Origin: a virus
Virus record (IMG/VR): IMGVR_UViG_3300045988_133811
Coordinates: 72,790 to 136,789 of that record
Length of the DNA stretch: 64,000 bases
Direction: 5' to 3' (one strand)
Below the pieces are notes generated by a model that made no database searches, was not told where the DNA came from, and saw nothing but the letters and a program-made list of their open reading frames with translations. The translations under genes and the position numbers were made by a program. Positions 29,905 to 30,867 of this stretch are shown one piece after another. Each line of letters opens with the position of its first letter. The first letter of the stretch is position 1.

Positions 29905-30867
29905 ATGAGACAGATTACAGACACACATACAGGAGAAATTATCTCCGATACAGATTTAACATTGGAATACTTATTTGTTGGTGATTATGGCAAGGAAAAC
30001 AACATTAAGGCAGATTTTCTTGGGTATGATAAACGAATTGAAAAAGTTGAACATAAACCAGTTGATATTAGAGAAAAATTAGTTGTGACTGTTTCGTCAC
30101 AGAAAGGTTGCCCGATGCATTGCAATTTCTGTGATTGCCCTAAACTTGGATTTAAAGGAAACGCATCGTTGCCAGAGTTAATGATGGAGATCACTTCTGG
30201 AATTGCTTTATCAGGAATCAGACATGGAGAACGATTAAATGTACATTATGCAAGAATGGGAGAGCCTACATTTAATCAAAATGTAATTGCTTCGGCTAAA
30301 CAGATTGCACATATGTTAGCAGATCCAGACAGCGATATACATTTCAACACATATCATCCAGTAATTTCTACAATGATGCCAAAGGCAAATAATAATTTAA
30401 AAGAATTTTTACATAAATGGGTTAAAACTGGATTCGAATATGGTGGAGAAGATGGCTTTGGTCTTCAGTTCTCTATCAATACTCTTAATGAAGAACAAAG
30501 AAATGAAATGTTTCGAGGATGTTCATTATCTTTAACAGAGATCGGAGGCATTATTGATTGGTTGCCAATGCCAAAGAAACGTAAGTATACATTGAATTTT
30601 GCTGTTACATCCAAAAGTAATTTAGACGTAGATTTGATGAACAAGTATTTCGATAAGGAAAAATGCATTGTCAAGATTACTCCTATCCATGAAACAGTTG
30701 AAGCAGTTAACGAAGGATATGAGATCGTAACAGATTTTGACGTATATGAAAAATTTGAACAACCACTTGTAAAAGACGGTTGGGATGTAATTGTATTTGT
30801 TCCGTCGAAAGAAGAAGACACAGACAGAATTACATGTGGAAATTCATTAATTGCATTAGGAAATTAA
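29905..30867 (+). CDS. Radical SAM enzyme, RlmN/Cfr-like (RNA methyltransferase-like), N-terminally short
   Basis: CPMHCNFC (CxxxCxxC) embedded in VTVSSQKGCPMHCNFCDCPKLGFKGNASL (compare the RlmN core VSSQVGC..C.FC...GF.RNL), a GEP motif (YARMGEPTFN), and a C-terminal ITCGNSL resembling the RlmN C-terminal AACGQL. RBS aaaggaaggagag. Confidence 0.5.
   Translation: MRQITDTHTGEIISDTDLTLEYLFVGDYGKENNIKADFLGYDKRIEKVEHKPVDIREKLVVTVSSQKGCPMHCNFCDCPKLGFKGNASLPELMMEITSGIALSGIRHGERLNVHYARMGEPTFNQNVIASAKQIAHMLADPDSDIHFNTYHPVISTMMPKANNNLKEFLHKWVKTGFEYGGEDGFGLQFSINTLNEEQRNEMFRGCSLSLTEIGGIIDWLPMPKKRKYTLNFAVTSKSNLDVDLMNKYFDKEKCIVKITPIHETVEAVNEGYEIVTDFDVYEKFEQPLVKDGWDVIVFVPSKEEDTDRITCGNSLIALGN

What the first reader, a model, noticed from the sequence alone, without database searches (positions are those of the whole stretch)
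29905..30867. Phage RlmN/Cfr-like radical-SAM protein lacking the resolving cysteine
The segment VTVSSQKGCPMHCNFCDCPKLGFKGNASL aligns by eye with the RlmN/Cfr core (L-C-VSSQVGC-x3-C-x2-C...GF.RNL). The GEP SAM motif and a C-terminal ...ITCGNSL resembling the RlmN methyl-carrier cysteine region (AACGQL) are present. The residue corresponding to RlmN Cys118, which resolves the covalent enzyme-RNA intermediate, is Thr here, and about 50 N-terminal residues are missing. RlmN mutants at this cysteine are reported to stay covalently cross-linked to RNA. A phage enzyme built this way could modify rRNA or tRNA in a Cfr-like manner, or deliberately trap host RNA. Either outcome would be notable.
Basis: partly seen in the sequence, partly recalled or inferred. 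Interest (0 to 1): 0.6.

Follow-up and report, generated by a model that had tools for sequence, protein, structure and literature searches.

The report
RlmN-like radical-SAM enzyme tied to NAD salvage
This abundant gut-phage gene is a distant cousin of the RNA-methylating enzymes RlmN and Cfr that lacks one of their two catalytic cysteines and their RNA-binding domain, and its relatives keep turning up inside NAD (vitamin B3) salvage gene clusters, so it more likely acts on a small molecule in NAD recycling than on ribosomal RNA.

Summary
ORF 29905-30867 (+, 320 aa) is a radical-SAM protein whose nearest characterised relatives, by sequence, profile and fold, are RlmN and Cfr. It keeps the CX3CX2C cluster, the GEP motif and the methyl-carrier cysteine (Cys311 = RlmN Cys355). 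It has Thr62 where RlmN has the resolving Cys118, and it lacks the N-terminal RNA-binding domain. This is a family trait: among 130 non-redundant homologs none of the residues tallied at the Cys118 column is Cys, while the Cys355 column is about 90-97% Cys.

It is not an RlmN/Cfr member (35 bits against a curated cutoff of 290). The rRNA-methylation and RNA-trap reading is not supported. Homologs 55-57% identical sit inside pncB-pncA-rSAM-nadE-DUF5662-nrtR operons in gut Alphaproteobacteria. DPANN archaea have similar arrangements. 23 of 80 viral loci carry NAD-salvage genes within 10 kb. More distant members are fused or adjacent to isochorismatase-fold hydrolases. The family is acidic.

Best reading: an uncharacterised small-molecule radical-SAM enzyme coupled to nicotinamide/NAD salvage, carried by phages as an accessory and possibly counter-defence gene. 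The chemistry is unknown. A QueL-like role, hinted at by QueT-transporter fusions, and a tRNA role remain possible.

The parts
29905..30867 (+). Complete ORF, 320 aa plus stop: RlmN/Cfr-related radical-SAM protein, member of phrog_24834
   Evidence: ORF; phrog_24834, E=3.4e-80; RlmN/Cfr are the nearest characterised relatives; AF2 model, pLDDT 93.3
29905..30084 (+). N-terminal beta-rich extension (residues 1-60). It corresponds to the strands that precede the RlmN core, not to the RlmN N-terminal domain, which is absent. It contains Glu21, nearly invariant in the query's subgroup.
   Evidence: strands E2-6, E10-15, E20-26, E34-36; query 34 aligns to RlmN 93; Glu21 in 69 of 73 group-A sequences
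30088..30090 (+). Thr62 codon, at the position of RlmN resolving Cys118
   Evidence: Thr in 63 of 73 group-A sequences; Cys not among the residues tallied in 130 non-redundant homologs
30109..30132 (+). CX3CX2C radical-SAM [4Fe-4S] motif (Cys69, Cys73, Cys76) within the VSSQxGC context shared with RlmN/Cfr
   Evidence: near-invariant cysteines; PF04055, weak
30253..30267 (+). RMGEP motif (residues 117-121), the counterpart of RlmN GMGEP. Arg117 is a family-specific, near-invariant replacement of RlmN Gly177.
   Evidence: Arg in 71 of 73 and 54 of 57 sequences
30832..30843 (+). T-C-G-N motif containing Cys311, the counterpart of the RlmN methyl-carrier Cys355 (AACGQL), nine residues from the C-terminus
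   Evidence: Cys in 69 of 71 group-A and 49 of 55 group-B ungapped sequences; profile aligns ...incgql to RlmN AACGQL

Best explanation
The gene encodes a member of a large, uncharacterised radical-SAM family (phrog_24834) that branched from the RlmN/Cfr class-A methylase lineage. It keeps the SAM/[4Fe-4S] machinery and the C-terminal catalytic cysteine loop. It has lost the N-terminal RNA-binding domain and the second, disulfide-forming cysteine. I propose that it acts on a small metabolite of the nicotinamide/nicotinate-to-NAD salvage route, working alongside nicotinamidase-type (isochorismatase-fold) hydrolases, and not on rRNA. Proposed mechanism: the cluster held by Cys69, Cys73 and Cys76 is reduced by a flavodoxin- or FNR-type partner and cleaves SAM to a 5'-deoxyadenosyl radical (inferred from motifs, fold and partner genes). 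Cys311 on the flexible C-terminal loop takes part in the radical step, either as an S-methyl/methylene carrier adding to an electron-poor N-heteroaromatic ring as in RlmN, or as a covalent or H-atom-donating residue. Without a Cys118 equivalent there is no intramolecular disulfide resolution, so release of any adduct must be substrate-assisted or reductive (inferred). The near-invariant Arg117 and Arg199 would fit an anionic small substrate (inferred). In the phage the gene lies in a variable accessory island and most likely supports or redirects host NAD supply during infection, possibly against NAD-depleting immunity (inferred). Shown here: the homology, the residue pattern, the gene contexts and the fusions. 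Not shown: the substrate, the reaction, or any effect on NAD.
For: Homology and residues. Tight co-directional operon pncB-pncA-rSAM-nadE-DUF5662-nrtR, with 5- to 16-bp gaps, in gut Alphaproteobacteria loci L018, L019, L024 and L052, whose rSAM proteins are 55-56% identical to the query over the full length: PncB scores 427 bits against a 297 cutoff, NrtR_WHD scores 56 against 27, and the PncA-like protein carries the motifs I associate with nicotinamidases. Nanoarchaeota L038/L041 have rSAM-x-pncB-pncA-like-x followed by an ORF that matches NadE by tblastn, and Woesearchaeota L042 has rSAM followed by NMNAT-like and NrtR-like genes. Viral contigs: 23 of 80 loci have NAD genes within 10 kb in at least five arrangements. 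L123 (rSAM 84% identical to the query) has PncA, DUF5662, NAPRTase (226 bits), NadD-like and NAD synthase (180 bits). L171-L174 have rSAM-x-PncA-PncB. L132/L133 have a NAMPT-family gene plus NadE. L114-L121 have Nudix plus NMNAT-like genes. The baseline for NARP1 plus NARP2 is 5.4% of whole phage genomes (10.1101/2024.02.11.579819). Coupling to the isochorismatase fold across the family: fusions P0235 and P0259, adjacency in about 20 diverse bacterial and archaeal loci, and adjacency in a 177-kb phage-like contig. Reductant partners: a TrxR-like flavoprotein in 22-26 loci (the one example inspected has no cysteines) and an FMN reductase in L029. Fusion to an ECF S-component and a nucleosidase implies an imported small substrate. 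Acidic protein with no RNA-binding domain.
Against: No NAD-salvage gene was found anywhere in this 64-kb window or within 10 kb in the identical-protein lineage L101-L113, so in this phage the gene stands alone. The 80 viral loci are mostly one phage lineage, so the 23 of 80 figure is not 23 independent events. The alphaproteobacterial clusters lie next to tRNA-Asn and a DNA methylase, so they may be one mobile island. Anti-defence and accessory genes cluster in phage islands, so co-location may not mean a shared pathway. The isochorismatase partners of the distant subgroup lack the nicotinamidase motifs I looked for, and the fused domains lack a cysteine at the aligned catalytic position. Other contexts point to tRNA: Thg1, the CCA-adding enzyme, RlaP and tRNA arrays. 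To my knowledge no radical-SAM step is known in NAD salvage, and the papers I searched did not describe one. The chemistry is not established.
Confidence: 0.42

Rival explanations
1. It is a small-molecule radical-SAM enzyme whose substrate has nothing to do with NAD. The NAD genes nearby only reflect the habit of phage and mobile-element accessory and anti-defence genes to collect in the same islands.
For: The window and its closest lineage have no NAD genes. Neighbours are otherwise not conserved between lineages. Sister contigs carry Tad2-like, PemK and TerD/vWA cassettes in the same island. The partners of the distant subgroup are generic amidohydrolases.
Against: The gene is inserted between pncA and nadE with single- to double-digit bp gaps in Alphaproteobacteria, and it sits in a different but still NAD-specific operon in DPANN archaea. 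Direct fusions to the isochorismatase fold exist.
Confidence: 0.2
2. It still acts on RNA. It would modify an adenine in tRNA (as RlmN does at A37) or in rRNA, using Cys311 as methyl carrier and resolving the adduct in some way that does not need Cys118. Phages would use it to modify or protect their own or host tRNAs.
For: The nearest characterised relatives are RlmN and Cfr over the whole core, including the mCys loop. In prophages and phages the gene lies next to tRNA arrays, the CCA-adding enzyme, RlaP, Thg1 and RNA ligases.
Against: There is no N-terminal RNA-binding domain. The family is acidic. Scores are far below the curated cutoffs. Fusions to a membrane transporter S-component, a nucleosidase and isochorismatase domains make no sense for an RNA enzyme. 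NAD-operon embedding. tRNA arrays are common in phage accessory regions anyway.
Confidence: 0.15
3. It is a queuine-lyase-like enzyme, a functional or true homolog of C. difficile QueL, that releases preQ1 from queuine to feed tRNA queuosine or 7-deazaguanine DNA modification.
For: Bacterial relatives 34-38% identical are fused to an ECF S-component that passes the Pfam QueT threshold (37-40 bits against 33.7) and to a nucleosidase. This mirrors the QueK/QrtT/QueL logic (PMC11130926, PMC11477304). A published remark says a non-orthologous QueL may exist (PMC12632869). The tRNA-related neighbours would also fit.
Against: No preQ1 riboswitch in the 12 loci scanned. No Tgt or QueA near any locus or in the window. 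The fusion occurs in only one of the fetched genome loci (L004). The S-component of P0157 is ambiguous between QueT, RibU-like and generic ECF families. The nucleosidase domain best matches MTA/SAH nucleosidase, which could simply clear 5'-deoxyadenosine. The query is much closer (55-57%) to the NAD-operon proteins. QueL is filed under IPR006638, not an RlmN/Cfr signature. The QueL sequence could not be obtained for a direct comparison.
Confidence: 0.12
4. One reading: the enzyme is built to remain covalently cross-linked to host RNA, like RlmN C118A, as a weapon.
For: It has the methyl-carrier Cys but no resolving Cys. From my own knowledge of the RlmN literature, C118 mutants trap RNA (structures 5hr6 and 5hr7 are such complexes).
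Against: The same residue pattern is conserved in hundreds of cellular homologs in housekeeping-type operons. A suicide protein would not be expected to be embedded in NAD-salvage operons or fused to transporters. There is no RNA-binding domain and the protein is acidic.
Confidence: 0.03

Closest known systems
RlmN (dual-specificity 23S rRNA m2A2503 / tRNA m2A37 methyl synthase, class A radical-SAM methylase)
   Same: Same fold (Foldseek E about 4e-10, TM about 0.6). Same VSSQxGC-CX3CX2C context, GEP motif and C-terminal CG(Q/N) loop with the methyl-carrier cysteine. Profile match over the whole core.
   Different: 17% identity. Scores 35 bits against a 290-bit cutoff. Lacks the N-terminal domain of about 60 residues. 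Thr replaces the resolving Cys118. Arg replaces Gly in the xMGEP motif. Acidic rather than basic. Gene contexts are NAD salvage, amidohydrolases and a transporter, not translation.
Cfr (23S rRNA m8A2503 methyltransferase, antibiotic resistance)
   Same: Same class-A architecture. The family profile matches the Cfr structure 9p0p at 1.7e-18.
   Different: Far below every Cfr model cutoff (21-24 bits against 468-550). Shares the same missing Cys and missing N-terminal domain. There is no basis for predicting a resistance phenotype.
QueL (queuine lyase, C. difficile CD1684)
   Same: A radical-SAM enzyme acting on a salvaged nucleobase-type micronutrient, working with a nucleosidase and an ECF S-component. 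Some relatives of the query have exactly such fusion partners (PMC11130926, PMC11570991).
   Different: Sequence relationship could not be tested. No preQ1 riboswitch or tgt/queA context found. The query's closest cellular homologs are in NAD operons, not queuosine operons.
Phage NAD+ reconstitution pathways NARP1, NARP2 and NARP3
   Same: Phage-borne accessory genes concerned with NAD supply. NAMPT-family, NadE, Nudix and NMNAT-like genes lie within 10 kb of the radical-SAM gene in sister phages (10.1101/2024.02.11.579819; PMC13464706).
   Different: None of the NARP papers I listed or searched mentions a radical-SAM enzyme. This window has no NARP genes. A role of this protein in NAD reconstitution is a hypothesis, not a demonstrated function.

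Membership tests
RlmN/Cfr class A radical-SAM RNA methylases | CX3CX2C [4Fe-4S]/SAM motif in the VSSQxGC context, plus the GEP SAM motif | tested here: met
   Cys69, Cys73, Cys76 and RMGEP 117-121
RlmN/Cfr class A radical-SAM RNA methylases | Score at or above the curated family cutoffs (TIGR00048, NF008396, TIGR04432, NF000424) | tested here: not met
   35.4 against 290; 28.4 against 633; 21.3 against 550; 23.7 against 530 bits
RlmN/Cfr class A radical-SAM RNA methylases | Methyl-carrier cysteine (E. coli RlmN Cys355) in the C-terminal CGQL loop | tested here: met
   Cys311 in TCGN; conserved in 69 of 71 and 49 of 55 ungapped homologs
RlmN/Cfr class A radical-SAM RNA methylases | Resolving cysteine (E. 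coli RlmN Cys118) just before VSSQ | tested here: not met
   Thr62. Cys is not among the residues tallied at this column in 130 non-redundant homologs
RlmN/Cfr class A radical-SAM RNA methylases | N-terminal HhH2-like accessory (RNA-binding) domain | tested here: not met
   The alignment starts at RlmN residue 93 for query residue 34. No counterpart for about the first 60 RlmN residues
RlmN/Cfr class A radical-SAM RNA methylases | C2 or C8 methylation of A2503 or A37 | not testable with these tools
   Requires biochemistry or primer extension / MS
phrog_24834 (phage protein family of unknown function) | Significant full-length match to the PHROG profile | tested here: met
   E=3.4e-80, residues 17-316 to profile positions 21-322 of 336
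QueL queuine lyase | Sequence homology to C. difficile CD1684 (Q186P0) | not tested
   Sequence not obtainable. The primary paper (PMC6754566) and the review (PMC10966956) are not held. No QueL model appeared among the NCBIfam hits of the query or its QueT-fused relatives
QueL queuine lyase | Operon with QueK nucleosidase and QrtT/QueT transporter behind a preQ1 riboswitch | tested here: inconclusive
   QueT-like plus nucleosidase fusions exist in relatives 34-38% identical. No preQ1 riboswitch in 12 loci. Nothing of the kind in the window.
NAD salvage / phage NAD-reconstitution modules | Co-location with pncA, pncB, nadD, nadE, NAMPT, NMNAT or NrtR genes | tested here: inconclusive
   Met for close homologs in three cellular lineages and in 23 of 80 viral loci. 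Not met in this window.
NAD salvage / phage NAD-reconstitution modules | Demonstrated catalytic step in NAD synthesis, or rescue from NAD-depleting defence | not testable with these tools
   The papers I searched describe no radical-SAM step. Needs experiment.

The most novel reading that the evidence does not exclude
A radical-SAM enzyme derived from the RNA methyl synthases has been recruited as a previously unrecognised step of nicotinamide/NAD salvage. It might make a pyridine or adenine-nucleotide species usable, or modify it, via Cys311-based radical chemistry on an N-heteroaromatic ring. Gut phages would carry it, alone or with Preiss-Handler or NARP-type genes, to keep NAD available during infection and to blunt NAD-depleting immunity.
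Probability: 0.3. Interest if true: 0.85.

Novelty: new variant of a known kind. Interest (0 to 1): 0.62.

Why it matters
If the NAD link is real, it adds a new kind of enzyme chemistry to one of the best-studied cofactor pathways, and a new component to the phage-bacterium conflict over NAD. It would also be, as far as I know, the first class-A (RlmN/Cfr-type) radical-SAM enzyme that acts on something other than RNA, and one that runs with a single mechanistic cysteine, which bears on how the methyl-synthase mechanism evolved. In practical terms, thousands of these proteins are auto-annotated as '23S rRNA (adenine2503-C2)-methyltransferase'. That name is very probably wrong and could wrongly suggest Cfr-like antibiotic resistance in gut phages.

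Tried and rejected
1. **QueL lead.** The fusions with a QueT-like transporter and a nucleosidase suggested queuine lyase. Five literature searches and several look-ups failed to yield the QueL sequence or its radical-SAM clade. No preQ1 riboswitch turned up in 12 loci and no Tgt or QueA anywhere. I downgraded this lead but did not exclude it.

2. **Resolving cysteine supplied in trans.** The conserved 110-aa downstream PM0253-like protein ends in an invariant SCGGCI. The family has only 43 clusters, and its diverged members are not next to a radical-SAM gene, so I rejected it as a general partner.

3. **Another cysteine in the protein as resolver.** Cys78, Cys206 and Cys254 are not conserved.

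4. **Conserved module with the window's own neighbours** (DUF8224, the 129-aa and 155-aa genes, flotillin). These are restricted to this phage lineage.

5. **Tad2 anti-Thoeris genes as local context.** They are present in sister contigs but absent from this window.

6. **tRNA association.** 22 of 60 loci have a tRNA within 6 kb, but most are single tRNAs of the integration-site type.

7. **Annotated relatives.** There is no annotated close relative of the phage (megablast found no match). The AFDB fold library was unavailable. The viral fold library gave only unnamed radical-SAM proteins.

8. **Annotated distant phage homologs** (Vibrio D479, Pectobacterium Arno162, Salmonella Arash) showed no annotated NAD genes nearby.
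Full report
**Observation.** The ORF is real: 29905-30867, + strand, 320 aa. It contains the quoted segment, a CX3CX2C motif (Cys69, Cys73, Cys76), an RMGEP motif (residues 117-121) and a C-terminal ...DRITCGNSL.

The resemblance to RlmN/Cfr is far beyond chance:
- NCBIfam's best hits are all RlmN/Cfr models (TIGR00048 E=5.5e-9).
- phmmer against PDB finds E. coli RlmN at about 5e-7.
- A profile of 35 diverse family members matches RlmN 6fz6 at 5.4e-20 and Cfr 9p0p at 1.7e-18 over the entire core, including the C-terminal CGQL motif.
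- An AlphaFold2 model with pLDDT 93.3 and pTM 0.91 has RlmN structures as its ten best PDB matches (E 4e-10 to 8e-8, TM about 0.6). The next radical-SAM enzymes, LipA and PFL-AE, come in at 2e-4 or worse.

Three alignment methods put Thr62 opposite RlmN Cys118, and the MAFFT alignments put Cys311 opposite Cys355. Query residue 34 aligns with RlmN residue 93, so about 60 N-terminal RlmN residues have no counterpart. From memory, these form the HhH2-like domain.

**A family trait, not a phage oddity.** The protein belongs to phrog_24834, function unknown (E=3.4e-80). It has 6,904 homolog clusters in the 5.8-billion-protein collection and 577 clusters at the 50% identity level. Some are auto-named '23S rRNA (adenine2503-C2)-methyltransferase'.

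I aligned 130 non-redundant sequences (under 90% identity) and split them into two groups.
- **Group A** (at least 33% identical to the query, n=73). The Cys118 column is Thr in 63 sequences, and Cys is not among the residues tallied. The Cys355 column is Cys in 69 of 71 ungapped sequences.
- **Group B** (n=57). The Cys118 column is mostly Ile, Val, Met, Asn or Thr, and again Cys is not among the residues tallied. The Cys355 column is Cys in 49 of 55.

Arg117 (Gly in RlmN) and Arg199 are nearly invariant in both groups. The other cysteines of the query (78, 206, 254) are not conserved. The protein fails every curated RlmN/Cfr cutoff by a wide margin (35 against 290 bits and similar). So it is a relative of RlmN/Cfr, not a member.

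**Setting in the window.** The gene lies in a same-strand accessory region of a temperate phage. Nearby are integrases, a metallophosphoesterase, a PemK toxin, a Bro-N/ANT antirepressor, a 689-aa DUF8224 protein, the radical-SAM gene, a 110-aa PM0253-family protein, a flotillin and a 244-aa coiled-coil protein.

The identical protein is listed in 637 index blocks of the assembly collection, on contigs up to 235 kb, and on IMG/VR viral contigs. The island is variable: in one sister contig the flotillin cassette is replaced by a P-type ATPase plus vWA/TerD genes, and other sister contigs carry Tad2-like genes. Those Tad2-like genes are absent here. The window has no tRNA genes.

**Context elsewhere: first lead, queuosine.** Four long representatives are fusions. 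P0133 and P0142 are an ECF S-component (Pfam QueT, 37-40 bits against a cutoff of 33.7), the radical-SAM domain and a PNP_UDP_1 nucleosidase. P0141 and P0157 are an S-component plus the radical-SAM domain.

This recalled C. difficile queuosine salvage, with QueK hydrolase, QrtT transporter and the radical-SAM queuine lyase QueL (PMC11130926, PMC11477304, PMC11570991). I could not obtain the QueL sequence or the primary paper. The evidence against this lead accumulated:
- No preQ1 riboswitch in 12 loci.
- No Tgt or QueA in any locus or in the window.
- The fusion occurs in just one of 79 genome loci (L004, in ordinary chromosomal context).
- The nucleosidase domain best matches MTA/SAH nucleosidase, which could simply remove 5'-deoxyadenosine.
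- The query is only 36% identical to the fusion domain.

**Context elsewhere: main finding, NAD salvage and isochorismatase-fold partners.** I clustered all ORFs within 3 kb of the gene in 91 loci and followed up with family scans and probe searches. This gave four results.

1. **Gut Alphaproteobacteria.** Loci L018, L019 and L052 carry a tight operon: pncB (TIGR01513, 427 bits against 297), a pncA-like gene, the radical-SAM gene, nadE, DUF5662, and nrtR (NrtR_WHD 56 bits against 27). L024 has the same order without the nadE match. The pncA-like gene's only NCBIfam hit is nicotinamidase, and it carries the VDMQNDF, D-x-H...PPHC and GVAxxxCV motifs. Gaps between genes are 5-16 bp. These radical-SAM proteins are 55-56% identical to the query over its full length.

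2. **DPANN archaea.** Nanoarchaeota L038 has the radical-SAM gene, a 120-aa gene, pncB, a pncA-like gene, another gene, and a 668-aa ORF that matches NadE by tblastn. L041 shows the start of the same arrangement before the contig ends. Woesearchaeota L042 has the radical-SAM gene followed by NMNAT-like and NrtR-like genes.

3. **Group B.** These loci come from Chloroflexi, Asgard and Thermoplasmata archaea, Zixibacteria, Thermotogae and others. They share an arrangement of an isochorismatase-like gene, a TrxR-like flavoprotein and the radical-SAM gene in 20-26 loci. The one flavoprotein I inspected has no cysteines. P0235 and P0259 fuse the radical-SAM domain to an isochorismatase domain. These partners lack the nicotinamidase motifs, and the fused domains lack a cysteine at the aligned catalytic position.

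4. **Phage-like contigs.** A 177-kb contig carrying PolIII-alpha and NrdD has the radical-SAM gene directly followed by an isochorismatase gene.

**Viral contigs.** IMG/VR holds 492 stretches that encode a relative of the query, and I examined the best 80. NAD genes lie within 10 kb of the radical-SAM gene in 23 of them, in at least five arrangements:
- **L123** (radical-SAM protein 84% identical to the query): PncA (isochorismatase, 100 bits), DUF5662, NAPRTase (226 bits), a NadD-like cytidylyltransferase and NAD synthase (180 bits).
- **L171-L174:** radical SAM, one gene, PncA, PncB.
- **L132/L133:** a NAMPT-family enzyme plus NadE, a possible NARP1-type set.
- **L114-L121, L149, L155:** Nudix plus an NMNAT-like gene.
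- **L142, L144, L145, L162:** an NMNAT-like gene.

For comparison, NARP1 and NARP2 together occur in 5.4% of whole phage genomes. The comparison has limits. The 80 loci are mostly one lineage. My criterion (any NAD-salvage gene) is broader. The window and its identical-protein lineage have no NAD genes at all.

**Other recurring neighbours.**
- tRNA-maintenance genes: a metallophosphoesterase, RlaP, the CCA-adding enzyme and nine tRNAs in L008; Thg1 in L026 and in ten viral loci; tRNA arrays in phages BUCTxx99 and Arno162; RNA ligases in phage Arash.
- An FMN reductase overlapping the gene in L029.
- SPFH/flotillin proteins.

**Physicochemical check.** The query has pI 5.3 and net charge -13. 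Family medians are 5.6-5.9. The E. coli RlmN core has pI 8.5. This is weak but consistent evidence against an RNA substrate.

**Interpretation.** Three lines of evidence argue that the family works on a small metabolite together with isochorismatase-fold hydrolases:
- operon embedding in three unrelated cellular lineages;
- fusions to isochorismatase domains, a vitamin-type transporter and a nucleosidase;
- repeated proximity to Preiss-Handler or NARP-type genes in phages.

For the clade that contains the window protein, the pathway is most likely nicotinamide/NAD salvage. The conserved Cys311 loop implies that the cysteine is catalytically important, either as a methyl/methylene carrier as in RlmN or as a covalent or H-atom-donating residue. 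The absence of a Cys118 equivalent means the disulfide-based release step of RlmN is not used. What the enzyme does chemically is not established. The literature I could search describes no radical-SAM step in NAD salvage or in NARP1-3.

**Rivals** that remain: island co-location without pathway coupling, a tRNA/rRNA substrate, a QueL-like lyase, and with low probability the RNA-trap idea.

**Trans-acting thiol test.** The 110-aa downstream protein has an invariant C-terminal SCGGCI. Its family is small (43 clusters), and its diverged members are not next to a radical-SAM gene. It is not a general partner.

**Verdict.** This is a new variant of a known enzyme kind, with a specific, testable and so far undescribed link to NAD salvage. 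Interest is moderate to high: the family is very abundant in gut phages, it is widely mis-annotated as an rRNA methyltransferase, and it may represent new chemistry in cofactor salvage and in the phage-host NAD conflict.

Noticed in passing
window 30888-31220 (+): A 110-aa PF27390 'PM0253' family protein lies directly downstream of the radical-SAM gene. All full-length members of its small family (43 clusters) end in an invariant ...(D/E)(F/W)R-x-x-SCGGCI. No PDB relative. Function unknown. Diverged members are not next to a radical-SAM gene.
   Followed up: yes
window 31286-33495 (+); L096 11383-15492: A flotillin/SPFH gene (486 aa) plus a 244-aa coiled-coil protein form a swappable cassette. 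In sister contig L096 it is replaced by a P-type cation ATPase plus vWA-TerF-like and TerD genes. SPFH-domain genes recur next to the radical-SAM gene in other phage lineages (the 291-aa SPFH in L114-L121, and in L148, L027 and phage BUCTxx99).
   Followed up: partly
L050-L082 (about 20-26 loci): A conserved gene arrangement of an isochorismatase-like hydrolase, a TrxR-like FAD protein (the example inspected has no cysteines) and an RlmN-like radical-SAM gene, found in very diverse environmental bacteria and archaea (Asgard, Thermoplasmata, Chloroflexi, Zixibacteria, Thermotogae). To my knowledge it is undescribed.
   Followed up: partly
P0133, P0141, P0142, P0157; L004 5209-7674: Triple fusions of an ECF S-component (QueT-like), the radical-SAM domain and a PNP_UDP_1 nucleosidase, about 820 aa, in gut Bacilli MAGs, in ordinary chromosomal context.
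   Followed up: partly
L008 5055-12869; L026 4684-5628; L114-L121 about 8224-9012: Prophage and phage tRNA-maintenance modules (metallophosphoesterase, RlaP, CCA-adding enzyme, a nine-tRNA array, and Thg1-like 3'-5' polymerases) directly flank the radical-SAM gene in Oscillospiraceae prophages and in a gut phage lineage.
   Followed up: partly
L132 17154-20842; L133: A sister phage carries a 287-aa protein with no Pfam hit but an 'FPDG' motif that looks PRPS-like, a NAMPT-family protein, a 172-aa protein that looks Macro-domain-like by eye (no Pfam hit) and NadE. This may be a NARP1-type NAD reconstitution set with extra genes.
   Followed up: no
window 26870-28939 (+): A 689-aa protein of PF26675 DUF8224 / phrog_1735 (E=1.9e-263), with a CGHC motif near its N-terminus. 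It is conserved upstream of the radical-SAM gene throughout this phage lineage. Function unknown.
   Followed up: no
window 19843-22319 (+): An integrase, a calcineurin-like metallophosphoesterase (20634-21377) and a PemK-family toxin (21873-22319) lie upstream. A second integrase-like ORF is at 22325-23353.
   Followed up: no
L002 4914-5873 (Stenotrophomonas phage BUCTxx99, OR529408.1): The radical-SAM homolog in this phage is annotated 'prohibitin family protein', an apparent mis-annotation. It lies inside a large tRNA gene array.
   Followed up: no
L097 17858-19465: An IS605 OrfB / Cas12f-like TnpB gene is inserted in the accessory island of a sister contig.
   Followed up: no
window 1-64000: Nearly all long ORFs are on the + strand, and the cumulative GC skew rises monotonically across the whole window (GC about 29-37%). 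This fits a single transcription/replication orientation.
   Followed up: no
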